A stretch of DNA of 64,000 nt, taken from the NCBI GenBank assembly GCA_965263145.1, contig OZ253585.1, forward strand, positions 261,668-325,667, given 5' to 3'. The translations under genes and the position numbers were made by a program. Positions 34,123-55,012 of the stretch are shown in pieces. The DNA comes from Botrimarina sp. (GTDB lineage: Bacteria; Planctomycetota; Planctomycetia; Pirellulales; Lacipirellulaceae). The notes beneath the pieces are model-generated. The model made no database searches and was not told the DNA's origin. It saw nothing but the letters and a program-made list of their open reading frames with translations. How positions within the stretch are numbered: position 1 is the first letter of the stretch; every line of letters begins with the position of its first letter.

Positions 34123-37100
34123 CTATCGCAGATTACCTGCCAAGCAGGCCAATGCGGTAACAAGCATAAGAGCACTCGTTGGTTCAGGTATAGCAACCGA
34201 GGCGGAGGCTTGAATCTGGGTTCCATAATTGGCGGACCATAGATTGTAGTCATCTTGATCTACAACTCCATCAAGGTTGGCATCAGCAGCCAAAGTGATT
34301 CCCGTTTGACCTAGTTCATCTCGCCAGATGGTATAGTCAGCAGCATCAACACTACCATCGTTGTTGAAGTCGCCCATAAGGGTGACCGAGATTTCACCTG
34401 TTGTTAATAACTCGGAAGTGTTCCAAGTTAGCCCAGCTGACAGAGCAGGTAACTGAACTGAATCAAAACTACCTGTAACCGTCGCGAAATCGAGAAGATC
34501 GAAGCTATCACCTGCCTCTGGGGTAAACGATTGGCTTAAGCTAATTGTCAGAGAACCCCCGTCGAGAGTGACATCGCCTTGTACTTCGAGCTTGTCACTG
34601 TTGGCATCGCTGTAGATGTCTAGCTCAAGTGCTGCACCTACCTCGTGCAAGTAGTCTCCTGCGACAAGAATGAAAGCGGGGGACACTAATTGCTCCGTAA
34701 CAACGCTCCCATCAAAAGTAATTCTGGTAGTTACATCCAAGAAGCCATCCGCTTCGTCGCTAAGTACGAGATTATCGATGTGTCCACCCGAATAAACATG
34801 TAATGACCAAAGCTGAATGCCTGCCGTGCCATCATCTTCATCAAAGTCACGGTCATTTAGTAGGTAACTCATATCGGCGCTAGATGACAGACCAGCTTCT
34901 CCAAGACTGACATCCGGGTTAACCCACCATTCGAGTGTATCGTTACCTGTTGCTAAGCTTAATTTACCAACGATAAGCTGAACATCATTGGTGCTTGCAG
35001 TGCTTGGTGAAAAATTACTTAGGTCGTTTGGATTACCGTCAACGAAGAAATCGAGCGTTGCTCCTTGATCTCTTAGCAAAAAGCGATTGTCAAAAATGTT
35101 GCCGTGACCATCAATGTTGATTCCAGCACGACCGCCAGCATCTACTTGTGCCAAGAAGGAAAACCAAACATCTCCATTCAAATCGGTTTGGATAGAACGT
35201 TCGACAGAAGATGCGCCACCAGAAAGTCGTGCCAAATGCTGGCCGTCGCCATCCTGAGTCAGGCCGTAGTTTGTACTTGCTGGGGCAACAAGATCGCCAC
35301 TTACGACATTGATTGTGCCGCCTGAACCGGCGTTCTCCTCTGTATAGGAACTTGACCAGCCAGTACCACCATCCTGTCCCGTAACAACGCCAAGATCGAG
35401 ATCATTGAAGTTTGCAACAACAGGGCCTGATACAGATACAAATTCAGAAGCGACATTAATGGTAGATCCTGAACGAGCAGTTAAGTTACCAAGGATGACG
35501 CCGACACCTTCAACTTTTGAGCCTGTCTGAGATTCGATATCAGCTGCAATAATTTGAGGAAGGGTTTGATTAGCAATAGCTGTTGGTGTGTTAGGCATAC
35601 TTCTCAACTGGAAGGTTTCGCCATTGGCAACAGTCTTTAGGGCGTGAGAGGCAATTCCAAGGTTATTGACTCGGTGTGCTTGGATGTCTTGGTGCACAGC
35701 CCGAAAAGCTTGATAAGCATTACGGTCTTGTCCAACGGTTGCAGCGAGGTTGTTTAATTCCCAAATGTCATTCTGAGTGTCGTAAATCTCGACATAGGCA
35801 GGCAACTCGTCCGATTCATCATCGTAAGTATAGAAAACCTCATAGCGTCCATCGTAACCAGCTAGGATTGGCTTGTTGCCTGCGAAGGTTGATTCCCAGA
35901 TTTCGACGATGTTCGTATTGCGTACCCCAGCACCGTTGCCATTGTCGCTAAACAAGTTCTTGATGCTACTGCCTTGCATGGCTTGAGGGATTTGCGCTCC
36001 AGCGATATCTAAGATTGTGGGTGCAATGTCGACGTTTGAAACTTGACGATCATCCGTACGGCCGGTGTCAACACCAGGACCCATCACCATGAAAGGTACT
36101 CGGGCTGCTTGGTCAAACGGTAGCGACTTACTTGTCATGCCGTGGTCACCAATCATCCATCCGTTATCCGACATGAAGAAGACGTAAGTGTTGTCGATAA
36201 GCATGTGCCCTGGATTACGCGGGTCAGCGGTTGTATTGAGCTTGTCAATTAAGGGAGTTAGCATGTCGTCAAGCTCAGTGATGACGGCATAGTATTCACT
36301 TGTGTGGTCAGCTAGTTCATTGGGATCACCATAGAGATACCGGTTGTCGTTCTGAGCCAGCGTTCGGTTACGAATGTTCTCGTAGTAAGCAGGTTTGTTC
36401 TCTAGGTTGTCGTCCCAGTTACCTGGCAAGTTGTTTACATTGTTGGGAGCATCATAGAAATCAGTCGCATCGTACTTCGCCAAGTTTTCAGGCAACGCAT
36501 CCCAAGCCAAGTTGCCATTTAGGTGAGGTGTTTGGGTGTTGTGCCAGAGAAAGAAAGGCTTGTCAGCGGAGAGAGATTGATCGATGAAGTCAGCCGAGCG
36601 ATCAGCCGCATAGGCATCAATATGTTGGTTGCCAGGTTTAGCTGGGGCATTCGGATCGGAAATGTCTCGATAGTTGCGATAGTAGCTACCATTGCTGTTG
36701 TAAGTTGCGTAGTAATCGAACCCTAAGGCTTGTTGATCAAGTGCATTTCCTAAGTGCCATTTGCCTGTTACGCCGGTCGCGTAGCCTGCGTTTTGAAGTT
36801 CGACACCCAACCGTGGCGAATTGGCGTTAACGCTGTCGCCAAGATTCTCAACACCATTGGTTTGATTGAATTGACCGGTAGTAATTGTCGCACGGGATGG
36901 ACTACAAACAGGTAAGGCAGCACGTGCTTGAGTAAAGCGAACCCCTTGCTGCGCAATCATATCCATGGTTGATGTTTGGATAATGGAATTGCCGTTGGCA
37001 GCCAGTGCGTTGTACTGCTGGTCGTCAGTAAAGATGAAAACAATATTAGGCTGTTGGGCTAATGCCGACTGAGCACATACGAATAACAAGCCTGTGATTA

Positions 37101-37134
37101 AACAACGTAACATGGGATGCCTTTTCAATATCAA
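34123..37134 (-). CDS. Sulfatase (N-terminal) fused to a long beta-rich region with dockerin-like repeat and C-terminal PEP-CTERM anchor
   Basis: Signal peptide. Sulfatase signature PVCSPSRATITTGQ (C-x-P-x-R) and GKWHLG. Near the C-terminus DFNNDGSVDAADYTIWRDELGQ...DANLDGVVDQDDYNLW (dockerin-like). Terminal IPEPTSALMLVTALACLAGNLR is a PEP-CTERM. Confidence 0.8.
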   Translation of the reverse strand: MILKRHPMLRCLITGLLFVCAQSALAQQPNIVFIFTDDQQYNALAANGNSIIQTSTMDMIAQQGVRFTQARAALPVCSPSRATITTGQFNQTNGVENLGDSVNANSPRLGVELQNAGYATGVTGKWHLGNALDQQALGFDYYATYNSNGSYYRNYRDISDPNAPAKPGNQHIDAYAADRSADFIDQSLSADKPFFLWHNTQTPHLNGNLAWDALPENLAKYDATDFYDAPNNVNNLPGNWDDNLENKPAYYENIRNRTLAQNDNRYLYGDPNELADHTSEYYAVITELDDMLTPLIDKLNTTADPRNPGHMLIDNTYVFFMSDNGWMIGDHGMTSKSLPFDQAARVPFMVMGPGVDTGRTDDRQVSNVDIAPTILDIAGAQIPQAMQGSSIKNLFSDNGNGAGVRNTNIVEIWESTFAGNKPILAGYDGRYEVFYTYDDESDELPAYVEIYDTQNDIWELNNLAATVGQDRNAYQAFRAVHQDIQAHRVNNLGIASHALKTVANGETFQLRSMPNTPTAIANQTLPQIIAADIESQTGSKVEGVGVILGNLTARSGSTINVASEFVSVSGPVVANFNDLDLGVVTGQDGGTGWSSSYTEENAGSGGTINVVSGDLVAPASTNYGLTQDGDGQHLARLSGGASSVERSIQTDLNGDVWFSFLAQVDAGGRAGINIDGHGNIFDNRFLLRDQGATLDFFVDGNPNDLSNFSPSTASTNDVQLIVGKLSLATGNDTLEWWVNPDVSLGEAGLSSSADMSYLLNDRDFDEDDGTAGIQLWSLHVYSGGHIDNLVLSDEADGFLDVTTRITFDGSVVTEQLVSPAFILVAGDYLHEVGAALELDIYSDANSDKLEVQGDVTLDGGSLTISLSQSFTPEAGDSFDLLDFATVTGSFDSVQLPALSAGLTWNTSELLTTGEISVTLMGDFNNDGSVDAADYTIWRDELGQTGITLAADANLDGVVDQDDYNLWSANYGTQIQASASVAIPEPTSALMLVTALACLAGNLR

Positions 37135-37242
37135 AACAGTTGTTCGATAGGTAGAATTGGTTTTTATATAGGTATTTTAAAAGAAACCACCATCAATCTC
37201 TAACGATTGATGGTGGTTTTAAATTCTTTCAGCAAAAAATAT

Positions 37243-38151: not shown

Positions 38152-41100
38152 TTACTTTCTGGGGCTTAGGGTTGCAAAGCTTGCCCCAAGGGCGAGCAAT
38201 GCAAGGCTTGTGGGTTCAGGAATGGCATTGATTAAGGCAATCGCTGATGAAGCGGACTGTGATGCGGCCAGGGCATCTCGCCAGATCGTGAAGTCAGCGG
38301 CATTTACCACACCATCCGCATTGCCATCAGCACTCAAATCTTGGGTTGAGCCATAAATATTGCTCCAGACTTGGTAGTCCGCTTGGTCAACATCACCATC
38401 GAGATCGTAGTCGCCCAGTAGCGGAATAAATTCACTGTAAGTAAAGGTAGCAGTAGCGTTTGTTGACGTATCCGAGACAAGTCGAACCCAATGAGCTGAG
38501 TAACCACGCTCAAACGTATGGAGCAAAGTTTCTCCTGGTGCCACCGTGAATGTGTCATAGATATGCCATTCATTGGTACCAAGGAAATCTACTTCGACAG
38601 TAAATTCAACAGGGCTAACGTTGTCGTGTAAAATCTCTAATTGTTTGTGATCGTAACCCGCCATGAGGTAAGGGTCCGATTCATCGTTTGCTGTAACAGC
38701 GGTATCGCTCCAAGGACCACCAACTCCCACCGGAGCACCGAAGGTCCATAGGTCGTCAACATTGCCAAACCAAAGTCCAACTTCTCCATCGTCAGATTGG
38801 ACGTAGTGGCCATCTTCGGTCGATCCCTCTTCGACGCCGGATAGTACCATCATGCCACGCCAAGACATGAAGTCGAAGATGTCGCGATTATGGGTTGTAA
38901 TAGGAACCAATCGACGAATTCCACCGCCCGTAAAGCTGTGTGGTACTTCATAGATTGTGCCGTGGACATTTAATAGGTCACGCTCTGTCACAACTTCACG
39001 TTCACCGCGGCGCCATCCAGAGGCGGTAGCCGTATCAAAAGCAGAATGACCCTTTGGTAGACGGAAGCGTGTGCCCCCTTCTTCGACATAGGCAGAAGCA
39101 TTGTCGACTCCGTAGTCTTGAGTCGTTGCCGCACTACTGCGGACAGCTGCCTCAGCCGATGGATCGTTTACTGCGATTAGTTCAAGTGCGGCTGTCGTTG
39201 GATTCAGTTGAGCAACGTAATAACCTGTGCCAACGATGTTTCCAGCCGCATCTAGTCGGTCAGCAGCGAATTCTAGTTCGAAACTAGTACTGCCGGTTGA
39301 TCGCAAAATTCCTTGTGAGCGAGCTGTTGGAGAGCTCGGATCAGCAAGGCTAGCCATTTGTGTTGTGTTAGCAGCTTTTGCACCATTGCCCATGTGGAGG
39401 TAGGCAGATGCTGAGCTGACGTTGCTGTCGGATTTGAATCGAACCCATTCAGCGCTAAGATCCGCAGGCAAGAGATAGTGATCGTAACCATTGCCATTCA
39501 AGGTGCCATCAACGGAAATCACCGTGTGTGTAGTCCAGTTGCCAGTGCCATTCTGGTCTACTTCAATCGTGAAGTTAACGGAATTCGCATTGCTATTTTT
39601 GAAGTGAACTACCCGGTCGCGGAAGCCGTCAATTAGGAAAGCATCTGAGGCTTCGTTTGCGGTTACGCTGTCGTTAACCCACACTCCACCGTAGCCCTTT
39701 GGGTTGCCGCCGTAGTTGGGGACCTCAGTCTTATCGAGAAACATGATGTTTGAGTTAGCACGTGGCAGAATGTTATTGCCAAGTTGCTTTGACGAATCAT
39801 TGCCAGCAAAGATGATTTGGTCACCATCTTCAATATAGTCGACAATCATTTTGTGATGTGAAGCGATTGGCTTCAGTCCACCATAGTTGCCTGTTTCGAA
39901 ACCTTCTGGGACTAAGAACATCATGCCGTGATGACTCATAAGGTAACCGCCTTCAAGACCAACGTCACGAATGCGTGGCCATTCGGTATACCATCCATTC
40001 GGATGACCGTGAGTGTAGCTACTTTTGGGCAAGCGGTACTTCGTCCACTGGCCAGTCGAAGCATCTCGGGTGTTGATGAAGAGTGATTCGTCATCCCAAC
40101 CGGTTGCCCAGATGGCATCGGTGCTGGAAGGATCCATGTCGACAGGGCCTTGGCGGCTAGTGACTTCAGTGTACTGAGCGGTATCATCCGCAATGGTCCA
40201 CGAGGCGAGGTCCTCAGGGTCACCATTTCCGTCCCATTCAACGAGTCCCCCCCCTGCTCCGCCGCCAGCTCCATTGTTAGTGAAGAAGATACGCCCTTGG
40301 CCTGTGAATAGACCTTTACCATGAATGCCAGGAAGATTCTTTTGAATTCCCCCCTGAGAATCATGATTGCCATCAGCACGTAGCGTCGTGATTACAGGGT
40401 TATCGAGGTCGGAGAAATCAACTTCGTAGAGCGCTTCCTCCATTGTCATGTAGTAAAGCTTGTTAGGATCAGTGAGGTGAGCTGAGGTGCCCGTTATACG
40501 ACCAACAAGATCACCACTGTTGGGACTTGTTACTGGAAGATATCGAATTGTCCCGGTGGAGTGCTCAATGTAAGCAGCACCGATGACATCAATCCCCAAA
40601 TGATTGTCGGTATAACGATTGGCGTCAGTATTTCCGGGGTATTCTTTGTAGGTAGTATGCGTGAGGTTGTTTAGATCAACCGAATAAAGTTCATCTGATC
40701 CACCAGCAGTAACGTGAGGTCCGTACGTGACGTACCAAACCTTGCCGTCTCGTTTTATAAGCGCTCCCACCGCAGCTTCATTGTGAGTGTTTGTAACTGC
40801 CGTGTGAGGATAGATGCCTGAATATGCTACCGGGTTGATTGGGGTGATAACTTCTGTAGTTGAGATAGGAGGAGCTGGAGACGCCATGATTGAGACATTA
40901 TCAAGGTCGTACCCTGGGTTACTCCCGAAAGTGTCATTGAAGTTAAGCGATAACGCCCCACCAGTATCAACATTTTCAGATTGGAATATTTGAATTCCTG
41001 TTTGAGTCGAGTTGGAAGACAAGTGGTCAGTAAGCGATAAATCATAGGTCGCCGTTCCAACACCACCTGACCCCCAATTGCTACCTGAGATGCTTAAGGT

Positions 41101-41580
41101 GTTCCACTCACCTGGAAGGATCGGAGATAAGCCGCCAATCACTTGCCAGGACGAGCCATTGAAGGCTGCCCATTCAGAGTCTTGATACCGAAGGTTTAAG
41201 GAAGCCGAAGTGGTACTTGGGTTGGAAGATCTGCCAGATAACTGCAGATTGAATAGACGGTCGGTGGTTGAGTCGACACGGAAATCAAACGTTGCATTGA
41301 AGTCCGTTGCAAAAGGGCTGTTTGTATCCAGTCCTGAAAGACTTACTCCCAGTCCACCCTGACCACTGCCGACTCCTTCAATCCTTGCATAGTAATCTGT
41401 CCCGCCAGAACCATCGCCGGGAGTATTGATGATGGATAGACCTGTGCCTTCAATGGCATCCCAGTCGGCACTAAAGATACCCGATTCAAAATCATCCGTA
41501 ACAACTGAAACTTGAGCACTAAGTTGACCATGAAAGCATATACCTGCAATGGCAACAAAAAATGCAATTCGATAATTCAT
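38152..41580 (-). CDS. Large secreted protein (1142 aa) with dockerin-like repeats and PEP-CTERM anchor
   Basis: Signal peptide. DYDLDGDVDQADYQVWSNIYG...DGNADGVVNAADFTIWRDAL near the C-terminus. Terminal IPEPTSLALLALGASFATLSPRK. Confidence 0.6.
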   Translation of the reverse strand: MNYRIAFFVAIAGICFHGQLSAQVSVVTDDFESGIFSADWDAIEGTGLSIINTPGDGSGGTDYYARIEGVGSGQGGLGVSLSGLDTNSPFATDFNATFDFRVDSTTDRLFNLQLSGRSSNPSTTSASLNLRYQDSEWAAFNGSSWQVIGGLSPILPGEWNTLSISGSNWGSGGVGTATYDLSLTDHLSSNSTQTGIQIFQSENVDTGGALSLNFNDTFGSNPGYDLDNVSIMASPAPPISTTEVITPINPVAYSGIYPHTAVTNTHNEAAVGALIKRDGKVWYVTYGPHVTAGGSDELYSVDLNNLTHTTYKEYPGNTDANRYTDNHLGIDVIGAAYIEHSTGTIRYLPVTSPNSGDLVGRITGTSAHLTDPNKLYYMTMEEALYEVDFSDLDNPVITTLRADGNHDSQGGIQKNLPGIHGKGLFTGQGRIFFTNNGAGGGAGGGLVEWDGNGDPEDLASWTIADDTAQYTEVTSRQGPVDMDPSSTDAIWATGWDDESLFINTRDASTGQWTKYRLPKSSYTHGHPNGWYTEWPRIRDVGLEGGYLMSHHGMMFLVPEGFETGNYGGLKPIASHHKMIVDYIEDGDQIIFAGNDSSKQLGNNILPRANSNIMFLDKTEVPNYGGNPKGYGGVWVNDSVTANEASDAFLIDGFRDRVVHFKNSNANSVNFTIEVDQNGTGNWTTHTVISVDGTLNGNGYDHYLLPADLSAEWVRFKSDSNVSSASAYLHMGNGAKAANTTQMASLADPSSPTARSQGILRSTGSTSFELEFAADRLDAAGNIVGTGYYVAQLNPTTAALELIAVNDPSAEAAVRSSAATTQDYGVDNASAYVEEGGTRFRLPKGHSAFDTATASGWRRGEREVVTERDLLNVHGTIYEVPHSFTGGGIRRLVPITTHNRDIFDFMSWRGMMVLSGVEEGSTEDGHYVQSDDGEVGLWFGNVDDLWTFGAPVGVGGPWSDTAVTANDESDPYLMAGYDHKQLEILHDNVSPVEFTVEVDFLGTNEWHIYDTFTVAPGETLLHTFERGYSAHWVRLVSDTSTNATATFTYSEFIPLLGDYDLDGDVDQADYQVWSNIYGSTQDLSADGNADGVVNAADFTIWRDALAASQSASSAIALINAIPEPTSLALLALGASFATLSPRK

Positions 41581-44360: not shown

Positions 44361-44872
44361 TCGGCAAGTTGGCGACGGATGCGTCTAAGGGCTTGTGAAA
44401 GAGCGTTTTCACTTCTGCCTAATCGATGTGACAGCTTTCTCAATGTGCAGTCAGGTTCGTATCTGCCTCGGACAATTATCTGATCCTTCTCGGGAAGTTT
44501 GTCGAGGCAGTTCTTGAGCGCATCAAGACGGCTCTTTTGTTGCTCCTCAGATCGGTCTGCTACTTTCGTAGCCAAGGATTCAACAAGGGTCTCATCATAA
44601 ATATGGAAGCGATTGGCTCTCTTCTGACGAAATCTTAGAGCTCGATATTTTGCAATCTCTGAAGCCCAGGCATAGAAATTCGTCCCGCTCGTGTAGTCAT
44701 CAAACTTTTGCCATAGTGCAAGATTAGTGTCTTGAAGCACATCGTAGGCATCGGTCGGGTTAAACACCAAAGAGACTATGTAGACATACAGCTTCTGTTG
44801 GTGTTGTGAGAAGAGCTCTAGGAACTCTTCTATGCGGTCTGATTTCTTTCCCTGAGATTCTGATTCTTGCAT
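44327..44872 (-). CDS. ECF-subfamily RNA polymerase sigma-70 factor
   Basis: Region 2 (YVYIVSLVFNPTDAYDVLQDTNLALWQKFDDY...FYAWASEIAKYRALRFRQK) and region 4 HTH (LRKLSHRLGRSENALSQALRRIRRQLAECI). Confidence 0.8.
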   Translation of the reverse strand: MQESESQGKKSDRIEEFLELFSQHQQKLYVYIVSLVFNPTDAYDVLQDTNLALWQKFDDYTSGTNFYAWASEIAKYRALRFRQKRANRFHIYDETLVESLATKVADRSEEQQKSRLDALKNCLDKLPEKDQIIVRGRYEPDCTLRKLSHRLGRSENALSQALRRIRRQLAECIQRRLRIST

Positions 44873-47900: not shown

Positions 47901-49016
47901 CACGAAATCCACTTGGGCTGACACCGTTGATCCATCGGGAAGCGAATATTCCAGTTGGACATCCTCAAAAGGATTCGCAGTCCAAGCCCCAACGCCGAGT
48001 GAAATCGATTGACCTGGGTTCAAAGTTGCCCCAGCCAAAGACTCGAAATCGATTTCACTTAGGTCACCAGTAGCCGTTGGACTAGAAAGTTCCGTCCAAT
48101 CGTCGCCGGAAATGGTTGGTGACCCTGATCCATTAACATCGTAAGTGTCGCTAATGGATGTCCAGTTGCTTGCATCAAGGCCCCCTGCCGCTGATGTAAA
48201 GCTATAACCCGTAAATGTGACAGCCCCTGCAACGGCGTCATTCGGGTTCGTAAGGGTGATTTCTCCTGTCAATCGATCTATAGTTGCAGTCAAAGATGAT
48301 GGGACTACCGTTCCAGCTACCAAGCTGACATCATCGATATTGTAGTCGTCCCAGTTGGATCGACTGGCGAACTGAATTCGGTCGGCCGTGCCACCAGAAA
48401 TCTGTCCATTGTTTTGAAAAAGAGAAACTACGCCACTGGTATTTGATGTGGTAGCAGAGCCTGGGTTTGGATTTGACCAGTTAACGGAATAACTGGCGTC
48501 ATTAATATCGCCCGTTCCGAAGCCGTCAAAGTCAATCTCGAAGTAGTAGATTGAGCTCTCATCGAATGCGCCTACGGTTGAAAGAGTATTCCAGCTGCCA
48601 CCTGAGAAGGCTTCTAGCGTAGCATTCATACCATCAAGTTGTGCCAAACGGAGGTTAATACCTGCCGTCCCTGCGTCAGTTCCAAACACAAGATTGAAAG
48701 CACGTTCAGTCGTGTCGAAGGTTGTCGTTTGCAACCACCATGACAGAACGCCATCACTAGCTCCTGAAGCGGTGTCTTGGAAGAAGTCGTCGCCTGCACC
48801 AGTTGTGCCTGTGCCTGAAAGAATGGCATGTTGGGTTGAGCCAGGGGCAAAACCAGTACCAGCAGTAGCATTGCCATCGGAATTGTCCCAACCAGTGGCA
48901 AATGGGTTTGTCTCAAAGTCACCGTTCACTACAGTTTGGCCCAGTGCGGTTGAGCAGCTTACAAAAGCCGCCAAAGCCGTACATGCGGCTAGATGAATAA
49001 TGAAATTACGTTGCAT
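44922..49016 (-). CDS. 1364-aa ORF made of three tandem secreted PEP-CTERM paralog modules fused in-frame
   Basis: Three PEP-CTERM termini inside one ORF: VPEPGSASLLILFALTGSLAGSRR (~aa 452-475), VPEPGSLGICLLGGIAMFVRRRTRR (~aa 928-952) and the final VPEPTSSFLMLCSLVAVGASRGARK. Each internal one is directly followed by a new signal-peptide-like segment (MRTFSRNAIVPAILFVVTFSFSAHKA; MFVRRRTRRVLPVVAAVAMVAATATPAQA). Each module also carries a DFNxDG dockerin-like repeat. Confidence 0.6.
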   Translation of the reverse strand: MQRNFIIHLAACTALAAFVSCSTALGQTVVNGDFETNPFATGWDNSDGNATAGTGFAPGSTQHAILSGTGTTGAGDDFFQDTASGASDGVLSWWLQTTTFDTTERAFNLVFGTDAGTAGINLRLAQLDGMNATLEAFSGGSWNTLSTVGAFDESSIYYFEIDFDGFGTGDINDASYSVNWSNPNPGSATTSNTSGVVSLFQNNGQISGGTADRIQFASRSNWDDYNIDDVSLVAGTVVPSSLTATIDRLTGEITLTNPNDAVAGAVTFTGYSFTSAAGGLDASNWTSISDTYDVNGSGSPTISGDDWTELSSPTATGDLSEIDFESLAGATLNPGQSISLGVGAWTANPFEDVQLEYSLPDGSTVSAQVDFVNGATIESGDFNSDGVIDALDWGILRSNLFGDFSSLPTAQSYFNGDISGNGIVNGFDYQQFRTAFETANGVGSFEALIAAVPEPGSASLLILFALTGSLAGSRRMRTFSRNAIVPAILFVVTFSFSAHKAEALVVGIDSVTLDVNNALTGVEINSTNYNGPFTIADIAQDNRGAGGLLGVATGDSVLTGTVVDPMDANQGFAFDNNVLTGVAGSTGNPEQNGGAMALYWGDNNTTGLTDNDADPDFFIFEDLGNDSVEVRAILGNGTVGESVALSTWNSVSSLGDLYGSDATPLGGGGNRTVTGVAFDFTDLLDETGAALTNGTAIRGILVGDEGSADLYEIYANIDSASVAPIPTLPLTLQVDPVDGDIRIANTDVAGSIDFAFYQVDSALGELDTVGWNSLEDQNLAAFPAGDGTGNGWEEGGLSDSDTLGEAFLLGNSSLAFGESVYLGEAVIDNVTQSENISFSYRTPEGNLVEGLVEFVNVEPPVGLAGDFNNDGSVDAADYTVWRDNLGQSDSVLNGNGDGDGTVDAGDYTLWSGNYGASSSSSSSAASAVPEPGSLGICLLGGIAMFVRRRTRRVLPVVAAVAMVAATATPAQAIIFDRDLQLGEEESGSVGATVTQSFDSSRYYVDFDGAVTNPLGAVAGNPVYADVSARPGAGADSSTIGITFDGNGDYLHQRRFGNPENSAGSISPINNQPDGFSKNYTGLRNRGMQLWINPNSSASGTRQSVMHDTNQFGILISEDNTWILQSNDVEYDTEIAVNFDAWSHVSVVRERGVGTVMHLNGIGIGRTSSTYKTGDDPQVPQDTADLVLGANTAGDETTFSGGTQDFFTGTLDQVEVFTWGVSEEGPGAEPIEDHGDYNFVRDNGFARSAGLFTGVAGDINSDGFLNQSDVDDFVAGWLNESSLGFLDGTTGGSLVGDISTFPMGDLDLDGDTDFDDALLMQSALINASVSTSGLAAVFAPVPEPTSSFLMLCSLVAVGASRGARK

Positions 49017-50349: not shown

Positions 50350-50472
50350 GGGCTAGTTCAATTGGTCATATAGGGCTAAGGCAACCAGCTACTCAATCAA
50401 AATATTGAATCTGCTAATGAAGCAGTGTGTGTGTCGCCACCCTCTGCGAATTGCTGGCAACTAAAACAAAAA

Positions 50473-50507
50473 CGGCTGCTGTACTACATTGTACAGCAGC
50501 CGTTAGG
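50473..50507 (-). terminator. Rho-independent terminator for the minus-strand gene ending at 50604
   Basis: Perfect 14-bp inverted repeat AACGGCTGCTGTAC-tacatt-GTACAGCAGCCGTT. Read on the minus strand it is followed by TTTTGTTTTAG. Confidence 0.5.
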
Positions 50508-50603: not shown

Positions 50604-51965
50604 CTAATTGCGTCGCGCACTTCGCTTGATGCCTAGCAACGAAACTAACATGCAGGAAATAAGTCCAGAGGTGCTGGGCTCTGGTACTGCCGTTGCTGAT
50701 GCCGTTGCTGATGAGGTGCCGTAGTTAGAAACCCAGAAGTTGTAGTCCTCTTGGTCAACCACACCTGGCGTGCTGGCTGCGGGGTTCTCATTTGGTAGTG
50801 TTACATTCTGATTTAGATTGTCTCGCCATACCGTATAGTCGGCTGCGTCAACTTCTCCATCATTGTTGTAGTCACCTGGTACGCCAGCAGTTGTCACGAC
50901 TTCGATAAGTGCTTCGCGGATTTCCCCATCAGGACGGCGGTACTCAAACGTGAGTGAGTCCGTATCACCACCCGGTTTGAAGGCTGTCCCCAGATCGACG
51001 GTTCTGTTTTGTCCAAAGATAGAGGTGCTAAGCAAGAAAGCCTCCGAGAGGACATCATCACTTGAACCTCCAGCTTCGTCCCACGTCTCACCAATACCGT
51101 TTCCGACAGTTGAGTCAGGATCGAGGCCATCAATAGCATCGATTTCTTGATCACTAAGACTATTCCAACCAGCAAAATTGAGATCGCTAGTTGAGCTTGA
51201 AAGGCGGTACCAATCAAATTCAAAATCGGTGCCCGATTCGTTGAATAACTCAACCTGACCAGTAACGGAATTGACTTGCAACTTCAGAGCATCGAAGTCC
51301 GAGTAACGGACGTCGTCGAACGAGTTGAATGCAGAGAAACCAGCACCGACGTTGGGGTCGCCTGTAAAGGAAAACGAAGTGATTTCTGCCCCGGGATCGG
51401 TATCGAGGACTCCAAAGAACCCTGTGAAGTTGTTTGAGGAATCAAATGCTGTGACAATTTCCCCGTTAGTCCCTTCAAAGCTGAGGAAAGTTCCGTCGTC
51501 ATCGTTGTCGTAGTTTTTGTACTCAAATGCAAAGGCCTCGACCCCGGGCGGTAGGGAAACGGTCACTGTCTCTTGAGAGTTTGCACCGGTTCCTTTGTCG
51601 AGGAATCGTAGACTGACGACGGCATTTCCATTGATGACGGCGCCTGAGCTGACATAGCCGGAGCCATCGCCAACATCATCAACGTCGATAATCGCGTTGT
51701 CACTGAAGTTTGCGTTGGCGGAAAGTCCCAGAATGCCGTTTGGGCTACGTGTTGAGTTTGAAGCCGTGCCAAAAAAATCGTCACTCACCTGTCCTTCAAA
51801 GTCTTCTAGATGCGTAATCCCTCCCACTGCGGCTTGCCATGATGCCAAATCAGTAAAGGTTTGAATCTCGGCAGTAGCGACGCTTGAGACGCAAATTGCG
51901 GCGACAAAAGTAAACAGGCCTATCTGGCGTTTACTGGTAATAGCTCTCAGGGTGTTGGTAAACAT
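50604..51965 (-). CDS. Secreted PEP-CTERM protein with dockerin-like repeat (453 aa)
   Basis: Signal peptide. GDYNNDGEVDAADYTVWRDNL. Terminal AVPEPSTSGLISCMLVSLLGIKRSARRN. Confidence 0.6.
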   Translation of the reverse strand: MFTNTLRAITSKRQIGLFTFVAAICVSSVATAEIQTFTDLASWQAAVGGITHLEDFEGQVSDDFFGTASNSTRSPNGILGLSANANFSDNAIIDVDDVGDGSGYVSSGAVINGNAVVSLRFLDKGTGANSQETVTVSLPPGVEAFAFEYKNYDNDDDGTFLSFEGTNGEIVTAFDSSNNFTGFFGVLDTDPGAEITSFSFTGDPNVGAGFSAFNSFDDVRYSDFDALKLQVNSVTGQVELFNESGTDFEFDWYRLSSSTSDLNFAGWNSLSDQEIDAIDGLDPDSTVGNGIGETWDEAGGSSDDVLSEAFLLSTSIFGQNRTVDLGTAFKPGGDTDSLTFEYRRPDGEIREALIEVVTTAGVPGDYNNDGEVDAADYTVWRDNLNQNVTLPNENPAASTPGVVDQEDYNFWVSNYGTSSATASATAVPEPSTSGLISCMLVSLLGIKRSARRN

Positions 51966-52041: not shown

Positions 52042-53526
52042 TCAAGAACCTTTACGTCGGACTGAAAGCATGCTCCCAAAGAATACCGAGACCAGCATTA
52101 AGCTGGTTGGCTCTGGCACCGAAGTAGCCAGCATGACAGCAAACGATCCAGTGCCATTGGCTTCTTCGAAGAGTTCTTTAAAGAGGCTAAAATCGGCAAC
52201 GCTCGTGATGCCTCCGTAATTGAGGTCCCCAGCTTGATATGCTTCTGCGAGGGAAAGTGCTGATAGATCAGCTTCTAGACCGCTAACCAGAGCGTTCCAG
52301 TCATCGACGGTGATTGAGCCATCGAAATTTAAGTCGCCTACTTCAAATGGGTTTCCACTATTGCCGACAAATTCGACAGTGGCACTGCGCACTACATTAC
52401 CAGCAAAAAGCAACTGTGCTTGCAGGTCTTCTCGTGGATTCTTAATCCAGCTTCCGCCGGGGCCACTCAAGATGACTTCCTGGCCAATGCCAAGGACCCC
52501 ACCGTCGCCCGAGTCGAATGATTCACTTACTTCAGTTGTCGTTGATGTAACAATGCTCCAATCATCATCCACATCAACGGATCCATCACCGGGGCCTGAG
52601 GCATTGTCATAGTTATCCGTGATTGGCATCCAGCCACCAGTGTCGAATGCGCCGACTGCAGAAGTTAACGAGTAAGACTCCAAGCCGGAAAGAACTTGTC
52701 CCGTTGTGTTGATCAGTTTCATAACGCCAGTGTCGCGATTCACTTCGAGCGTCATTAAGTCAGTCAATGGATTAACGTCGGTCAAAGCAATTCGGTCGAT
52801 GGTGAAGTTCTCATCAAGATCAGTACCAAAGTTGTTGTTGGCCACAAATCGGATCGAATTACCATTACGCGATGGAGCTACGCTACCCGAGCCGAGTGAC
52901 TGGGAAGGCCCTGAACCATCCTTGTAAAAGATTTCATATCTTTCATTGGCCTTATCAAGCTCTAGTACCATGGTGAATGGATTGGTCTGAACCGTGGAGA
53001 GTTGAGCGGTCGAAGAGAGGTTTGACGCTCCACTTCCCAGGGCACTTCCTTCAAGTTGTATGTTCCCCGTGGTAACATCACGTGTTATCTGTACCTGGGC
53101 AGTAATTGCTGATCCATCGGTGCCGGTATCGTCATCAAGAAACGCGAAGCGAATTTGTTCTGGATCAATCGACTCGCCAATAAGATCCGGTCCACGGAAA
53201 TCCCATCCTGCGACATCGACAATAATATACCGGCTTCCTGAAGTCGAAGAATCAATGTTGTCAATTTGCAGATAGCTTGGGGCAAAGACATCACTGAATT
53301 TAGAAACACGGTAACCGCCATCAAACACGAACGAATCGGTTAGTAGGTTGGTGTTGGTGGACCAATTATTTGCAGGATTTATTGAGTTGGCCGTGTTTCC
53401 AAGCTCCGTAAAGTTTGAATCGTTAAATTCAAATGCTTCAAAATCGATTCCCTTTGCGATCGTTGCGGATAAGCATATCGCAACCATAGCTAGATAGAGG
53501 AATTTACTTTCATTGCTACTGTTCAT
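52042..53526 (-). CDS. Secreted PEP-CTERM protein (494 aa)
   Basis: Signal peptide. VGDLNFDGSITVDDWNAL. Terminal SVPEPTSLMLVSVFFGSMLSVRRKGS. Same architecture as its neighbours. Confidence 0.6.
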   Translation of the reverse strand: MNSSNESKFLYLAMVAICLSATIAKGIDFEAFEFNDSNFTELGNTANSINPANNWSTNTNLLTDSFVFDGGYRVSKFSDVFAPSYLQIDNIDSSTSGSRYIIVDVAGWDFRGPDLIGESIDPEQIRFAFLDDDTGTDGSAITAQVQITRDVTTGNIQLEGSALGSGASNLSSTAQLSTVQTNPFTMVLELDKANERYEIFYKDGSGPSQSLGSGSVAPSRNGNSIRFVANNNFGTDLDENFTIDRIALTDVNPLTDLMTLEVNRDTGVMKLINTTGQVLSGLESYSLTSAVGAFDTGGWMPITDNYDNASGPGDGSVDVDDDWSIVTSTTTEVSESFDSGDGGVLGIGQEVILSGPGGSWIKNPREDLQAQLLFAGNVVRSATVEFVGNSGNPFEVGDLNFDGSITVDDWNALVSGLEADLSALSLAEAYQAGDLNYGGITSVADFSLFKELFEEANGTGSFAVMLATSVPEPTSLMLVSVFFGSMLSVRRKGS

Positions 53527-55012
53527 TGGATTCCCTATTCAAAGTGTGCAGTAAGCGTTTAGTTCTTAGTGAGAATATTGGTGTAAATAAAGCAGCAGCG
53601 ATAAGCATGCTGGTCGAGGGTTCTGGTACAGCGAATAGTGCCGCAAAAGCTGTTGTTCCATTTTCCGCTATGAATGAATCCTTAAACAATCCAAAGTCTT
53701 TGCCGCTATTAAATCCATCGCCATCAAGGTCTCCCAGGTAATAGGCGTCTTCGCTACTAAGCCCACTGAGGTCGGTTTCAGCGTTGGCAATGAACAATTC
53801 CCAATCGAGCAAGTCTAAAAATCCGTCGGTATTGAGGTCACCAAGTAGAGGAATCGAAATTTCCATTTGGTAGAAGCCAACGCTTCCGTAGTCGGAGTAC
53901 CGACCAGGATTGTCGACCCCGTCCACATAGAAAGTGTAGGAGCCTGATTCGAGGAAGATATCAAAGTCAATATTTGGTGTGACCGAAGGATCAAACTCAG
54001 CAACAACGGCACCCGAGTCGTTATAGAGGACGACCCCCACATCAAGATTAGGATCCTGAGCAAAGCCACTCACTTCGATTCCAACTTCACCTCGTCCTGT
54101 TGTAAATCGAAAGTAGTCTCGGTCGTTGCGATCTTCAATAATGCCCCATTCCTCCATCACTCTTCCGTTGGGGGTGAGATCGTGAGGGGTGCTTAGATCG
54201 TTTAGATAGTCGTCTGATCGGAAACCGAATCCTCGGCTGGTAATAAAAGAGTAATCGTCAGCGAAGTTAGTGGCTCCGGCATAGTCGCCATTGCTCCACT
54301 GAGAGATTGTCGCATCGAAGGGAGCCCCCATGATTGGCCCCCAGCTTGTGCGACCAAAGCCTCCAGTGCCTGGGTGATATTCAAGGCTATTTAGACCATC
54401 GTGAGTAAGGCCAAAAGAATGCCCCGCTTCGTGCGTTGCCGTTTGTCCCCCTTTGCGAGCTCCCTTGTTGAAGACAAAGACCGGGTTGTCGACCGGATCA
54501 TCGAAGCCGGTAGGGCCGGCGTTGCCACCGATCCCGTCCCCAAAGCCAGCGGTCGCTTGGGTCATTACTACACGAACTCCCCAGTGAACATCAAAATCGC
54601 CTCGCCGACGCAGAGCTGCAACCCCTGGGTTTCTCGTGGTCACGTTGACGTTGAAAGGGATGTAGTCTTCAGCAACATTTTGGAAGATCTTCTGGATCTC
54701 AATCCTTTCAGTTTCGCTGAAGATGCTGGGATCTCCATCCAAATCGTAATTTGGAAAAACGATGTTGTGACCCCAGGAATTGTTCACACTGTGGTGACCT
54801 GTGAAATCAAGGAAGATCGTTTTAGTAGCAGAAGGGTTGCTGGAAAGATTGAAGGTTTGGTCCAAAGGATAGGGAGCCGTGGTATTCGGATCACCAAACG
54901 TAAATGTCCCATCGATATATGCCGGGTATATTGCTGCGTTTGCGTGGGTTGCTGTGATCGCAACCACCACAATCAACGCAATGCGGAAGCAATATGACGG
55001 ATTGGCAAACAA
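53516..55012 (-). CDS. Secreted zinc metalloprotease (reprolysin/M12B-like HExxHxxGxxHD) with dockerin-like repeat and PEP-CTERM anchor
   Basis: HEAGHSFGLTHDG zinc-binding motif. Signal peptide. C-terminal GDLNTDGFLDLLDWELF and AVPEPSTSMLIAAALFTPIFSLRTKR. Confidence 0.65.
   Translation of the reverse strand: MFANPSYCFRIALIVVVAITATHANAAIYPAYIDGTFTFGDPNTTAPYPLDQTFNLSSNPSATKTIFLDFTGHHSVNNSWGHNIVFPNYDLDGDPSIFSETERIEIQKIFQNVAEDYIPFNVNVTTRNPGVAALRRRGDFDVHWGVRVVMTQATAGFGDGIGGNAGPTGFDDPVDNPVFVFNKGARKGGQTATHEAGHSFGLTHDGLNSLEYHPGTGGFGRTSWGPIMGAPFDATISQWSNGDYAGATNFADDYSFITSRGFGFRSDDYLNDLSTPHDLTPNGRVMEEWGIIEDRNDRDYFRFTTGRGEVGIEVSGFAQDPNLDVGVVLYNDSGAVVAEFDPSVTPNIDFDIFLESGSYTFYVDGVDNPGRYSDYGSVGFYQMEISIPLLGDLNTDGFLDLLDWELFIANAETDLSGLSSEDAYYLGDLDGDGFNSGKDFGLFKDSFIAENGTTAFAALFAVPEPSTSMLIAAALFTPIFSLRTKRLLHTLNRESNEQ

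What the first reader, a model, noticed from the sequence alone, without database searches (positions are those of the whole stretch)
34123..55012. Dense cluster of secreted PEP-CTERM proteins with dockerin-like DxNxDGxVD repeats, including enzyme fusions
At least seven consecutive minus-strand genes end in VPEP/IPEP plus a TM helix plus basic residues (PEP-CTERM sorting signal). Most carry one or two dockerin-like calcium-binding repeats just upstream. Catalytic passengers include a sulfatase (CSPSR) and an M12B-like metalloprotease (HEAGHSFGLTHD). The cluster is embedded with an ECF-sigma/FecR/DUF1559 regulatory trio. PEP-CTERM normally implies an exosortase (EpsH/XrtA), which is not in this window.
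Basis: partly seen in the sequence, partly recalled or inferred. Interest (0 to 1): 0.55.

Follow-up and report, generated by a model that had tools for sequence, protein, structure and literature searches.

The report
PEP-CTERM surface-protein cluster with three-in-one polyprotein
A planctomycete gene cluster encodes nine sorting-signal-tagged surface proteins, and three of them are written as one continuous reading frame in which each membrane-anchor signal runs straight into the next protein's export signal, a conserved layout I could not find described in the papers I could search.

Summary
Seven minus-strand ORFs (34123-55012) carry nine [VI]PEP + hydrophobic helix + basic-cluster signals. 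Scored as isolated tails, 8 of 9 pass the TIGR02595 cutoff. Eight of nine modules have a dockerin-like calcium-loop pair just upstream. The sulfatase (CSPSR), the HExxHxxGxxH metalloprotease and the ECF sigma/FecR/DUF1559 trio are all confirmed. No exosortase was found in the window; the rest of the genome could not be searched. The lineage is Pirellulales, probably Lacipirellulaceae.

The new point is ORF 44922-49016 (1364 aa). It is three complete PEP-CTERM proteins in one frame. After each internal PEP helix and Arg cluster comes a signal-peptide-like h-region ending in AxA.

- The fusion persists in homologs at 30-50% identity.
- It is present in cultured Aeoliella mucimassa (QDU55080.1).
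- It occurs in 93 of the 150 best 50%-identity clusters of module-3 homologs.
- Standalone homologs start with an ordinary signal peptide at the equivalent position.

Most likely reading: a secretory polyprotein threaded by alternating stop-transfer and re-entry signals, then cut by signal peptidase and exosortase into three lectin-like surface proteins. Cleavage is inferred, not shown.

The parts
34123..37134 (-). Gene A: formylglycine-type sulfatase (aa 29-480; CSPSR at nt 36892-36906), then a ~440-aa beta-rich region, a dockerin-like Ca-loop pair (nt 34333-34371 and 34246-34284) and PEP-CTERM (nt 34126-34191)
   Evidence: Pfam Sulfatase E=1.2e-42, SGSH_C and Dockerin_1 23.8 bits; motif coordinates; tail TIGR02595 17.4 bits
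37243..38010 (-). Gene B: 255-aa secreted protein ending in PEP-CTERM (nt 37246-37311); no dockerin-like repeat. Its N-terminal domain is paralogous to the N-terminal domains of G module 1 and of C
   Evidence: Pfam PEP-CTERM 27.2 bits on the full-length protein; blastp B vs G1 6e-27 and B vs C 2e-11
38152..41580 (-). Gene C: 1142-aa multi-domain beta protein (jelly-roll, beta-propeller, beta-sandwiches) with a dockerin-like pair (nt 38374-38412 and 38290-38328) and PEP-CTERM (nt 38155-38223). Its function is unresolved
   Evidence: AlphaFold pLDDT 84.9; Foldseek gives only generic propeller/sialidase/GH43 hits with TM<0.31; homologs at 48-68% identity, including Aeoliella mucimassa; tail TIGR02595 22.6 bits
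41652..42719 (-). Gene D: DUF1559 protein with a prepilin-type N-methylation motif
   Evidence: Pfam SBP_bac_10 1.2e-45 and N_methyl 4e-7
42720..44360 (-). Gene E: FecR-type anti-sigma factor with a CBM96-like C-terminal domain
   Evidence: Pfam FecR 25.2 bits (cutoff 24); CBM96 21.9 bits, below its cutoff of 26. The L002 and L009 orthologs carry CBM96
44327..44872 (-). Gene F: ECF sigma factor
   Evidence: Pfam Sigma70_r2 8.5e-11 and Sigma70_r4 3.8e-7
44922..49016 (-). Gene G: a single stop-free 1364-aa ORF holding three complete signal-peptide + passenger + dockerin-like + PEP-CTERM modules (the polyprotein)
   Evidence: ORF; three PEP-CTERM signals at aa 452, 928 and 1340; the 99%-identical P0001 was called as one 1362-aa gene on an independent assembly
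47586..49016 (-). G module 1 (aa 1-477): N-terminal signal peptide, a domain paralogous to the N-terminal domains of B and C, an LTD-like beta-sandwich, a dockerin-like pair and the first PEP-CTERM
   Evidence: blastp paralogy to B, J and K; Dockerin_1 best stretch at aa 380-431
47508..47663 (-). Junction 1 (aa 452-503): VPEP + 18-aa helix + RRMR + h-region AIVPAILFVVTFSFSA + HKAEA
   Evidence: Sequence. G1 tail scores 10.9 (TIGR02595) and 17.1 (Pfam), both below their cutoffs
46164..47585 (-). G module 2 (aa 478-951): internal signal peptide, variable passenger, LTD-like beta-sandwich (aa ~725-860), dockerin-like pair and the second PEP-CTERM
   Evidence: AlphaFold beta-sandwich with pLDDT mostly >90 plus two helices; 6 of 25 members of the domain family hit Pfam LTD, best E=1.2e-5
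46101..46235 (-). Junction 2 (aa 928-972): VPEP + 15-aa helix + RRRTRR + h-region VLPVVAAVAMVAATA + TPAQA, followed directly by the conserved mature start IIFDRD
   Evidence: Sequence; tail TIGR02595 22.8 and Pfam 23.7; AlphaFold helix-loop-helix at G aa 931-947 / 954-965, at low confidence (pLDDT 53-65); position is equivalent to the N-terminal signal peptides of standalone homologs
44925..46163 (-). G module 3 (aa 952-1364): LamG/ConA-like lectin jelly-roll, dockerin-like helices and the terminal PEP-CTERM (nt 44925-44999)
50604..51965 (-). Gene I: 453-aa protein with an LTD-like beta-sandwich, a dockerin-like loop (nt 50835-50873) and PEP-CTERM (nt 50610-50687); paralogous to G module 2
   Evidence: blastp G2 vs I 1e-46; Dockerin_1 19.0 bits, below its cutoff; tail TIGR02595 17.9
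52042..53526 (-). Gene J: 494-aa protein with an LTD-like beta-sandwich, a dockerin-like pair and PEP-CTERM (nt 52045-52119); paralogous to G module 1. Its start overlaps the stop of K by 11 nt
   Evidence: blastp G1 vs J 3.6e-39; tail Pfam 21.9 and TIGR02595 17.6
53516..55012 (-). Gene K: metzincin-type zinc metalloprotease (HEAGHSFGLTH, nt 54401-54433) with a dockerin-like loop and PEP-CTERM (nt 53555-53629)
   Evidence: Reprolysin_3 E=5e-4, 21.0 bits against a cutoff of 22.4; 304 homologs, many with PF13582, 69% identity to a Pseudobythopirellula maris protein
50471..50504 (-). Terminator-like hairpin (14-bp stem) after gene I; marks the end of the K-J-I unit
37183..37220 (-). 16-bp-stem hairpin followed by a T-run between B and A; the likely end of the G-F-E-D-C-B unit
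55408..57049 (+). Divergent pair: a second DUF1559 gene (55408-56565) and a 153-aa putative lipoprotein (56588-57049). Relatives keep a similar DUF1559 + 143/148-aa gene pair next to the sigma/FecR genes or the polyprotein
   Evidence: Pfam; synteny in L002, L009 and L010

Best explanation
The region is a Pirellulales (probably Lacipirellulaceae) locus for envelope or surface-displayed glycan-binding and hydrolytic proteins.

Nine modules share one design. Each has a Sec signal peptide, a passenger domain, usually an LTD-like beta-sandwich, a dockerin-like two-loop calcium module, and a PEP-CTERM sorting signal. The passengers are a sulfatase, a metzincin protease, a large propeller protein and LamG/jelly-roll lectin-like domains. 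An ECF sigma factor, a FecR-type anti-sigma factor with a carbohydrate-binding-like sensor domain, and a DUF1559 pseudopilin-like protein sit inside the G-to-B transcription unit and probably control it.

Three of the nine modules form one polyprotein (ORF G). I propose the following path.
1. The first signal peptide starts Sec translocation.
2. Each PEP-CTERM helix stops transfer, with its Arg/Lys cluster held in the cytoplasm.
3. The hydrophobic segment that follows re-initiates translocation as an internal signal peptide.
4. Signal peptidase I cuts after the AxA sites, and an exosortase cuts at the PEP motifs.
5. This releases three separate lectin-like surface proteins in equal amounts. 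Two ~45-50-residue helix-loop-helix remnants stay in the membrane.

Shown here: ORF continuity; motif and charge pattern at all junctions; conservation across deep divergence and in isolate genomes; equivalence of the internal segments to N-terminal signal peptides of standalone homologs.

Inferred: membrane topology, both cleavages, the final location, regulation by the sigma factor, and the substrate.
For: Cluster identity:
- HMM and motif results support every element.
- Synteny of sigma, FecR/CBM96, DUF1559, the C homolog and sulfatase is seen in L002 and L009, next to GH16 and further sulfatases. A. mucimassa L010 has a sigma, a LamG anti-sigma-like protein and DUF1559 beside a triple polyprotein and a sulfatase.

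Polyprotein:
- It is one stop-free ORF in the window and in the 99%-identical independent assembly.
- The same three-module single ORF occurs at 46-50% identity (P0002-P0004) and 29-32% identity (P0006, L003-L005), checked at DNA level.
- It is present in complete isolate genomes: A. mucimassa CP036278.1 has one stop in 1421 codons.
- A search with module 3 alone found 374 clusters. Of the best 150, 93 carry at least one internal PEP-CTERM, 58 carry two, and 51 are standalone proteins of ~400 aa.
- All 149 internal junctions have a second hydrophobic segment within 60 aa. The linker net charge is always positive (+1 to +9, median +4). A small-x-small motif ends the second segment in 130 of 149. 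No Met is present in 62%.
- Standalone homologs begin M-n-h-AxA and then the conserved xLDRxYxxGDD. Fused forms have the same h-AxA-LDRxY directly after PEP-helix-RRR.
- AlphaFold places two helices joined by the Arg loop at junction 2.
- Module 3 has a LamG lectin fold.
Against: - There is no experimental evidence for any cleavage.
- From memory, the PEP-CTERM domain is defined as lying at the extreme C terminus. Whether an exosortase accepts a PEP-CTERM followed by another helix is unknown.
- The PEP-CTERM of module 1 scores below both curated cutoffs (10.9 and 17.1 bits).
- A third of homolog clusters are unfused, so fusion is not required for function and could be a tolerated neutral state.
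- Junction 1 of the window has an in-frame ATG preceded by AGGA 9 nt upstream. Internal initiation cannot be excluded there.
- The AlphaFold hairpin has low confidence (pLDDT 53-65).
- No exosortase was found in the window, and the genome could not be searched.
- No shared promoter motif was found upstream of the units.
- Sigma/FecR linkage is absent from the distant polyprotein loci L003-L005.
- My PEP-CTERM and junction counts use home-made regular expressions, not SignalP or TMHMM.
Confidence: 0.6

Rival explanations
1. ORF G is made as one protein and stays one protein. It would be a polytopic inner-membrane protein with six hydrophobic segments (N-terminal signal peptide or anchor, two helix-loop-helix hairpins and a C-terminal helix) that displays three lectin-like periplasmic domains. 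The internal PEP and AxA sites would not be cut, or only the last PEP-CTERM would be processed.
For: The topology evidence is the same as for the main explanation: alternating helices and positive-inside linkers. As far as I know, exosortase substrates have only been described with the signal at the extreme C terminus. The G1 PEP-CTERM scores below both cutoffs. Some linkers are long (up to 42 aa), like ordinary cytoplasmic loops.
Against: The internal segments keep c-regions with small-x-small motifs in 130 of 149 junctions. These motifs lie at a fixed 3-6 residues before the conserved mature N terminus, exactly as in standalone homologs whose signal peptides are expected to be cleaved. The PEP tripeptide itself is invariant at internal positions in the alignments, which suggests it is still read by an enzyme. 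The modules also exist as independent secreted proteins in 51 clusters.
Confidence: 0.2
2. The fusion is a neutral by-product. Loss of the stop codon between adjacent PEP-CTERM genes is tolerated because a PEP-CTERM tail followed by a signal peptide is topologically harmless. The downstream modules would mainly be made from internal start codons, so the long ORF has no function of its own.
For: 38% of junctions have a Met near the linker. Window junction 1 has AGGA-N9-ATG. Fused and unfused forms coexist in the family. Gene fission and fusion are common in these loci: sulfatase A is fused in the window but split into two overlapping genes in L002, and K and J overlap by 11 nt.
Against: 62% of junctions lack a Met. 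The frame is kept through many indels, with linkers of 3-42 aa, in lineages down to ~30% identity. If the downstream modules were translated independently, frameshifts or new stop codons in the linker would be neutral and should have split most of the fusions. Without a stop codon the upstream module is made as a fusion in any case.
Confidence: 0.15
3. The long ORF is an assembly, sequencing or gene-calling artefact, for example a collapse of paralogous cassettes or lost stop codons in metagenome-assembled genomes.
For: Most homologs come from metagenomes. The modules share paralogous cassettes. One locus (L006) shows overlapping frames that look like frameshift errors.
Against: The same architecture is found in many independent assemblies and in complete isolate genomes. 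The junctions lie at the PEP-CTERM/signal-peptide boundary, not inside the repeated cassette. Module order and the junction sequences align across 52 proteins.
Confidence: 0.02

Closest known systems
PEP-CTERM/exosortase (EpsH) protein-sorting system (Haft et al. 2006, PMC1569441)
   Same: Same tripartite signal: PEP, a ~16-20-residue hydrophobic helix and a basic cluster. N-terminal signal peptides are present. There are many paralogous substrates per genome. The system is known from Planctomycetes: Rhodopirellula baltica is listed with 12 PEP-CTERM proteins and the EpsH homolog RB2461, and Pfam PF07589 was first built from R. baltica.
   Different: Two of the nine signals are internal and run directly into another signal peptide. 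Nearly every signal is preceded by a dockerin-like module. The neighbouring regulators are ECF sigma/FecR, not the PrsK/PrsR/PrsT set. No EPS genes or exosortase were found in the window.
Dockerin-bearing enzymes of Planctomycetes: the 'planctosome' hypothesis (Andrei et al. 2019, PMC6461901) and the LamG/dockerin sulfatases of Lacipirellula parvula (Dedysh et al. 2020, PMC6995999)
   Same: An M12B reprolysin-like peptidase and sulfatases carry dockerin and LamG modules. A lamin-tail-domain (LTD) module is proposed there as a surface tether. Here an LTD-like sandwich precedes the dockerin-like pair.
   Different: No cohesin was detected in any scanned protein of the window. Anchoring here is through PEP-CTERM. 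Neither paper mentions PEP-CTERM (0 occurrences), and neither describes polyproteins as far as I read them.
Secretory polyproteins threaded by alternating signal and stop-transfer sequences and cut by signal peptidase, such as the flavivirus polyprotein (own knowledge)
   Same: A single ORF with alternating hydrophobic segments and positive-inside loops. Signal-peptidase-type sites lie on the exoplasmic side of each re-entry helix.
   Different: This system is bacterial and chromosomal. The second processing enzyme would be an exosortase acting at PEP. All products are exported, and no product is cytosolic.
Bacterial surface polyproteins carrying a C-terminal sorting domain, such as the Porphyromonas gingivalis RgpA/Kgp/HagA precursors of the type IX secretion system (own knowledge)
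   Same: One precursor gives several surface-attached domains, and a sorting-domain-specific enzyme attaches the cargo.
   Different: Those precursors have one signal peptide and one C-terminal domain, and they are cut by soluble proteases after export. Here each module keeps its own signal peptide and sorting signal, and the cuts would be made by membrane enzymes.
ECF sigma/FecR-controlled polysaccharide utilisation loci (own knowledge)
   Same: A sigma/anti-sigma pair sits next to sulfatases, lectin-like modules and, in relatives, GH16 genes. The anti-sigma factor has a carbohydrate-binding-like outer domain.
   Different: There is no SusC/SusD or TonB-dependent transducer. DUF1559 pseudopilin-like proteins and PEP-CTERM cargo take their place. 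Regulation is untested.

Membership tests
PEP-CTERM sorting domain (TIGR02595 / PF07589) | PEP motif, then a ~13-20-residue hydrophobic helix, then a basic cluster | tested here: met
   All nine signals show it. No other such site exists in the six-frame translation of the window.
PEP-CTERM sorting domain (TIGR02595 / PF07589) | HMM score at or above the curated cutoff | tested here: met
   As isolated tails, 8 of 9 pass TIGR02595 (cutoff 16) and 5 of 9 pass PF07589 (cutoff 20.7). G module 1 fails both. On the full-length proteins only B, C and G pass.
PEP-CTERM sorting domain (TIGR02595 / PF07589) | Located at the extreme C terminus of the protein | tested here: not met
   Met for 7 signals. 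Not met for the two at G aa 452 and 928, which are followed by 912 and 436 more residues.
PEP-CTERM sorting domain (TIGR02595 / PF07589) | N-terminal signal peptide on the same protein | tested here: inconclusive
   Every ORF and both internal modules have an n-h-c pattern ending small-x-small when read by eye and by a simple hydropathy check. No dedicated predictor such as SignalP was available.
PEP-CTERM sorting domain (TIGR02595 / PF07589) | A cognate exosortase (EpsH/Xrt) encoded in the same genome | not testable with these tools
   The three polytopic membrane proteins of the window gave no exosortase Pfam hit. The source genome is not retrievable. R. baltica, a planctomycete, has an EpsH homolog according to PMC1569441.
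Type I dockerin (PF00404) | Two Ca-binding loop + helix repeats (DxNxDGxVD-type) | tested here: met
   One or two loops match the pattern in 8 of 9 modules. AlphaFold gives paired helices after the loops. The best PDB sequence hits are dockerins, but only at E=0.016-0.75.
Type I dockerin (PF00404) | Pfam gathering score (22.9 bits) | tested here: inconclusive
   A 23.8 and G 35.2 pass. C 18.8 and I 19.0 fall below. J and K gave no Dockerin_1 hit; J hit EF-hand_5 weakly.
Type I dockerin (PF00404) | A cohesin partner | not tested
   No cohesin family appeared among the Pfam hits of the scanned window proteins. The genome could not be searched.
Formylglycine-dependent sulfatase (PF00884) | Sulfatase fold plus the C-x-P-x-R maturation motif | tested here: met
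   Pfam E=1.2e-42 over aa 29-380 and CSPSR at aa 77. An FGE-sulfatase domain protein lies at 57080-59077.
Metzincin / M12B reprolysin-like metalloprotease | HExxHxxGxxH zinc-binding motif and a family HMM hit | tested here: inconclusive
   The motif HEAGHSFGLTH(D) is present. Reprolysin_3 scores 21.0 bits against a cutoff of 22.4, and Reprolysin_5 20.5 against 27. Many homologs carry PF13582 or PF13688. The Met-turn was not examined.
ECF sigma / FecR anti-sigma pair | Sigma-70 regions 2 and 4 without region 3, with an adjacent FecR-domain membrane protein | tested here: met
   Sigma70_r2, Sigma70_r4 and FecR all score above their cutoffs. The pair is conserved in L002, L009 and L010.
Secretory polyprotein with internal signal and stop-transfer sequences (functional analogy, not a sequence family) | Single ORF, alternating hydrophobic segments, positive-inside loops | tested here: met
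Secretory polyprotein with internal signal and stop-transfer sequences (functional analogy, not a sequence family) | Proteolytic release of the individual modules | not testable with these tools
   Requires proteomics or western blots.

The most novel reading that the evidence does not exclude
Lacipirellulaceae and other Pirellulales routinely make secretory polyproteins. Two or three complete exported proteins are encoded head-to-tail in one frame, and the PEP-CTERM helix plus Arg cluster of one protein together with the signal peptide of the next form a disposable membrane hairpin. Signal peptidase and exosortase cut the two ends of the hairpin and release stoichiometric sets of surface lectins. 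This would be a bacterial counterpart of viral and eukaryotic polyprotein threading. It would also be, to my knowledge, the first case of an exosortase-type sorting signal working at internal positions.
Probability: 0.45. Interest if true: 0.75.

Novelty: new variant of a known kind. Interest (0 to 1): 0.62.

Why it matters
C-terminal sorting signals (LPXTG, PEP-CTERM, PGF-CTERM and others) are, to my knowledge, defined as terminal signals. Polyproteins with internal signal peptides are textbook for viruses and eukaryotes but, as far as I know, almost unknown in bacteria.

A conserved, widespread architecture in which PEP-CTERM signals sit internally and abut signal peptides offers three things.
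- It is a natural test of what exosortases recognise. Their biochemistry is still largely inferred.
- It is a test of how the bacterial Sec machinery handles re-initiation of translocation.
- It is a test of whether fusion is used to enforce equal dosage of surface lectins.

The question can be studied directly, because cultured strains (Aeoliella mucimassa Pan181, A. straminimaris) carry the gene. It also matters for annotation: these ORFs are currently labelled as single 'LamG-like' or 'hypothetical' proteins, and HMM pipelines that expect a terminal signal may miss the internal ones. The cluster as a whole adds a conserved sigma/FecR/DUF1559 + PEP-CTERM cargo + sulfatase module to what is known about how planctomycetes handle sulfated glycans.

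Tried and rejected
- **Source genome.** Exact-sequence look-ups of three window proteins found nothing. A 99%-identical contig (ERZ26696107 contig_37, 283,858 bp) was found through P0001, but only +/-10 kb of it can be read. The genome-wide exosortase check was therefore impossible.
- **A. mucimassa homolog of C.** The look-up of P0177 failed.
- **Promoters.** The sigma-70 consensus scan gave 17 sites against 24 expected, so no enrichment. An 8-mer comparison of the upstream regions of G, K, I, F, C, B and A with those of L002 gave no motif shared by three or more regions. ECF control remains untested.
- **Function of C.** The PDB sequence search gave nothing useful. The AlphaFold model is good (pLDDT 84.9), but Foldseek hits are generic propellers (DDB1, NanB sialidase, GH43) with TM<0.31. 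I do not assign an activity.
- **L006 as a natural unfused control.** Rejected. Its G2-like and G3-like ORFs overlap by ~320 nt in different frames, which looks like frameshift error in a metagenome-assembled genome.
- **K-J fusion in relatives.** This was suggested by the 11-nt overlap. None was seen; the closest K homologs (60-69% identity) are ~460-530-aa proteins of K's own size.
- **Literature.** No paper in the library combines PEP-CTERM with dockerin, polyprotein or stop-transfer, or exosortase with internal signal peptide. The Haft 2006, 2011 and 2023 papers never use the word 'internal', and their uses of 'tandem' and 'fusion' concern other things. Subscription papers are not covered.

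Full report
**Observation.** A motif scan and a six-frame scan of the whole window find nine sites of the form [VI]PEP, 14-20 uncharged residues, then a basic cluster. All nine lie inside 34123-55012 on the minus strand, and none lies elsewhere in the 64 kb. Seven are at the C terminus of an ORF (A, B, C, G, I, J, K). Two lie inside ORF G, at aa 452 and 928.

Scores depend on how the signals are presented.
- On full-length proteins only B, C and G reach a curated PEP-CTERM cutoff.
- As isolated tails, 8 of 9 pass TIGR02595 and 5 of 9 pass PF07589.
- PEP-CTERM is the top-scoring Pfam family for every tail.
- The exception is the first internal signal of G (10.9 and 17.1 bits).

Dockerin-like Ca loops precede the signal in eight of the nine modules; B has none. 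Pfam Dockerin_1 passes its cutoff for A and G and falls just below for C and I. The best PDB sequence matches are dockerins, but they are weak. The other elements hold as follows.
- The sulfatase is solid: Pfam E=1.2e-42, with CSPSR present.
- The protease has the metzincin motif HEAGHSFGLTH, a sub-threshold Reprolysin hit, and 304 homologs, many annotated as M12 or zinc metalloprotease.
- ECF sigma, FecR (with a CBM96-like C-terminal domain) and DUF1559/N_methyl are confirmed.

**Organisation.** A 14-bp-stem terminator-like hairpin follows I, and a 16-bp hairpin with a T-run follows B. The likely units are K-J-I, G-F-E-D-C-B, and A alone. A plus-strand NAGPA phosphodiester glycosidase gene separates the first two. 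All-against-all blastp of the nine modules shows they are paralogous in their C-terminal cassettes. There are two cassette types, one shared by G1, J and K and one shared by A, C, G2 and I. B, G1 and C also share an N-terminal domain.

**Lineage and synteny.** The source genome is not in the exact-match index. A 99%-identical 283,858-bp contig has the same gene order. C has homologs at 48-68% identity, including one in Aeoliella mucimassa. K is 69% identical to a Pseudobythopirellula maris protein. Both species belong to Lacipirellulaceae, Pirellulales.

Related loci keep much of the gene set.
- L002: sigma, FecR/CBM96, polyprotein, a small PEP-CTERM protein, DUF1559, a 148-aa protein, a C homolog and a sulfatase.
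- L009, from a 4.5-Mb genome: sigma, FecR/CBM96, DUF1559, a 143-aa protein and a C homolog, among sulfatases and a GH16 gene.
- A. mucimassa L010: a sigma, a LamG anti-sigma-like protein, DUF1559 and a 143-aa protein lie divergently next to a triple polyprotein, followed by a LamG PEP-CTERM protein and a sulfatase.

Distant polyprotein loci (L003-L005) lack the sigma/FecR pair. The regulatory link therefore holds within the closer relatives only.

**The polyprotein.** ORF G (1364 aa) has no internal stop. Each internal PEP-CTERM is followed directly by a signal-peptide-like segment:
- junction 1: ...VPEPGSASLLILFALTGSLAGS-RRMRTFSRN-AIVPAILFVVTFSFSAHKAEA|LVVG
- junction 2: ...VPEPGSLGICLLGGIAMFV-RRRTRR-VLPVVAAVAMVAATATPAQA|IIFDRD

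Homologs keep this layout.
- P0002-P0004 (46-50% identity) and P0006 (30%) are triple. P0005, P0007-P0009, P0012 and P0017-P0019 are double. P0011 and P0013 are triple with other passengers.
- A five-sequence alignment puts the junctions in register. The PEP tripeptides are invariant, and no Met is conserved.
- At DNA level, three metagenome-assembled Planctomycetota/Pirellulales genomes of the GTDB set each have one stop-free ORF of 1370-1436 codons with three signals.

To ask how common fusion is without using the fusion as bait, I searched 1.84 billion cluster representatives with module 3 alone. The search found 374 clusters at E<=1e-3. Among the best 150, counted with my own pattern:
- 58 have two internal signals, and 57 of these also have a terminal one;
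- 35 have one internal signal, several of them N-terminally cut fragments that still keep the upstream PEP-CTERM;
- 51 are standalone ~400-aa proteins;
- 6 show no signal.

There is a small bias towards multi-module proteins, because the shared dockerin/PEP cassette adds a little to the score.

The triple form is present in cultured isolates: A. mucimassa Pan181 (QDU55080.1, annotated 'LamG-like jellyroll fold domain-containing protein') and A. straminimaris (WP_252850495.1). The A. mucimassa gene has one stop in 1421 codons.

**Junction anatomy.** I examined 149 internal junctions.
- The first helix is 14-20 residues long, median 16.
- The linker is 3-42 residues long with net charge +1 to +9 (median +4), and never zero or negative.
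- A second uncharged hydrophobic segment is present in all 149.
- A small-x-small motif lies near the end of that segment in 130.
- No Met lies near the linker in 62%.

Standalone module-3 homologs begin with M, a basic n-region, an h-region and AxA, followed by the conserved xLDRxYxxGDD. The fused forms show the same h-region, AxA and LDRxY directly after PEP-helix-RRR. The commonest spacing from the small-x-small site to the DR motif is 4 residues. The internal segment is therefore the counterpart of an ordinary cleavable signal peptide.

AlphaFold on G aa 725-1364 with 52 sequences gives mean pLDDT 83.7. In order along the chain it predicts:
- a confident beta-sandwich;
- two dockerin-type helices;
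- a disordered Ser-rich linker;
- two helices joined by the Arg loop (pLDDT only 53-65);
- a LamG jelly-roll;
- further dockerin-type helices and the terminal helix.

**Mechanism.** The charge pattern obeys the positive-inside rule for a helix-loop-helix hairpin. The simplest reading is co-translational threading. The N-terminal signal peptide opens Sec. The PEP-CTERM helix stops transfer, and the next h-region re-initiates it. Signal peptidase I then cuts after AxA, and an exosortase cuts at PEP. Each module thereby becomes what its standalone homologs already are. All of this is inference. Only ORF continuity, conservation and the sequence logic are shown.

The rivals are an uncleaved polytopic protein, a neutral fusion with internal initiation, and an artefact.
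- The artefact is excluded by the isolate genomes and the many independent assemblies.
- The neutral model is weakened because the frame is kept through many indels down to ~30% identity, and most junctions have no Met.
- The uncleaved model is weakened by the retained AxA sites and the invariant PEP motifs.

**Function of the cluster.** The passengers are a sulfatase, a metzincin protease, a large propeller protein of unknown activity and several lectin-like domains. Relatives add GH16 and further sulfatases. An FGE-type sulfatase-maturation domain protein lies 2 kb away. This fits surface or envelope display of glycan-binding and hydrolytic proteins acting on sulfated glycans or glycoproteins. 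The anti-sigma factor's carbohydrate-binding-like domain would act as the sensor. That reading is an inference from domain content.

**Comparison with the literature.** PEP-CTERM proteins and an EpsH homolog are already recorded for R. baltica (PMC1569441). Dockerin/LamG sulfatases are reported in Lacipirellula parvula (PMC6995999). Dockerin-bearing M12B peptidases with an LTD tether appear in the 'planctosome' hypothesis (PMC6461901). The cluster as such is therefore a new member of known kinds. I found nothing on internal or tandem PEP-CTERM signals, or on PEP-CTERM combined with dockerin. The library does not cover subscription-only papers.

**Verdict.** The added finding, a conserved in-frame PEP-CTERM polyprotein, is a new variant of a known sorting system. 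It can be tested experimentally in cultured Aeoliella.

Noticed in passing
window 33294-33738 (minus strand): A tRNA mini-array lies just downstream of gene A: Gly(GCC), Leu(UAG), Asp(GUC), Leu(CAA). Both 'Leu' tRNAs are 74-75 nt long with a 5-nt variable region (class I shape) and discriminator A73. From my own knowledge, bacterial tRNA-Leu normally has a long variable arm. Their shared D-arm signature (GGTACGCCAACNGGCNGAGCGACC) recurs in ten metagenome contigs. Most of these are dense tRNA arrays of 7-23 genes that also hold 74-76-nt tRNA-Leu and the same Asp(GUC)-Leu(CAA) order. Their charging identity and role are unknown.
   Followed up: partly
window 53516-53526: The stop codon of metalloprotease K overlaps the start of J by 11 nt (ATGAACAGTAG), so the two PEP-CTERM genes are one frameshift away from a fusion. 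The closest K homologs (60-69% identity) are ~460-530-aa proteins of K's own size.
   Followed up: partly
L002 18896-21867 compared with window 34123-37134: In L002 the sulfatase catalytic domain (485 aa) and the C-terminal PEP-CTERM half (505 aa) are two genes that overlap by 4 nt. In the window they are one 1003-aa protein. Domain fusion and fission therefore seem frequent in these loci.
   Followed up: partly
window 57080-59077 (minus strand): A 665-aa protein with a C-terminal FGE-sulfatase (formylglycine-generating enzyme-like) domain lies 2 kb from the cluster. It may mature sulfatase A.
   Followed up: no
window 49462-50349 (plus strand): A secreted NAGPA-type phosphodiester glycosidase gene splits the PEP-CTERM cluster and is kept in the 99%-identical contig.
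   Followed up: no
window 11644-16268: A defence-type island lies in a low-GC stretch (0.42): an Eco57I/N6 methylase plus a BsuBI/PstI endonuclease (11644-14156), then a RelA_SpoT-like protein plus a GmrSD_N (DUF262) protein (14230-16268). A DUF3991 protein lies at 8435-9184.
   Followed up: no
window 23627-27120 (plus strand): An 822-aa protein with a lipase-type GHSLGG motif and no Pfam hit is followed immediately by a 341-aa protein. This could be a toxin/immunity pair.
   Followed up: no
homologs from alignment A3; also P0018 and P0019: In several homologs the dockerin-like pair is inserted inside the LTD-like beta-sandwich rather than after it.
   Followed up: no
P0014: A 1643-aa DUF1559 + dockerin protein is deposited under the green alga Ostreobium quekettii. 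It looks planctomycete-derived, by contamination or transfer.
   Followed up: no
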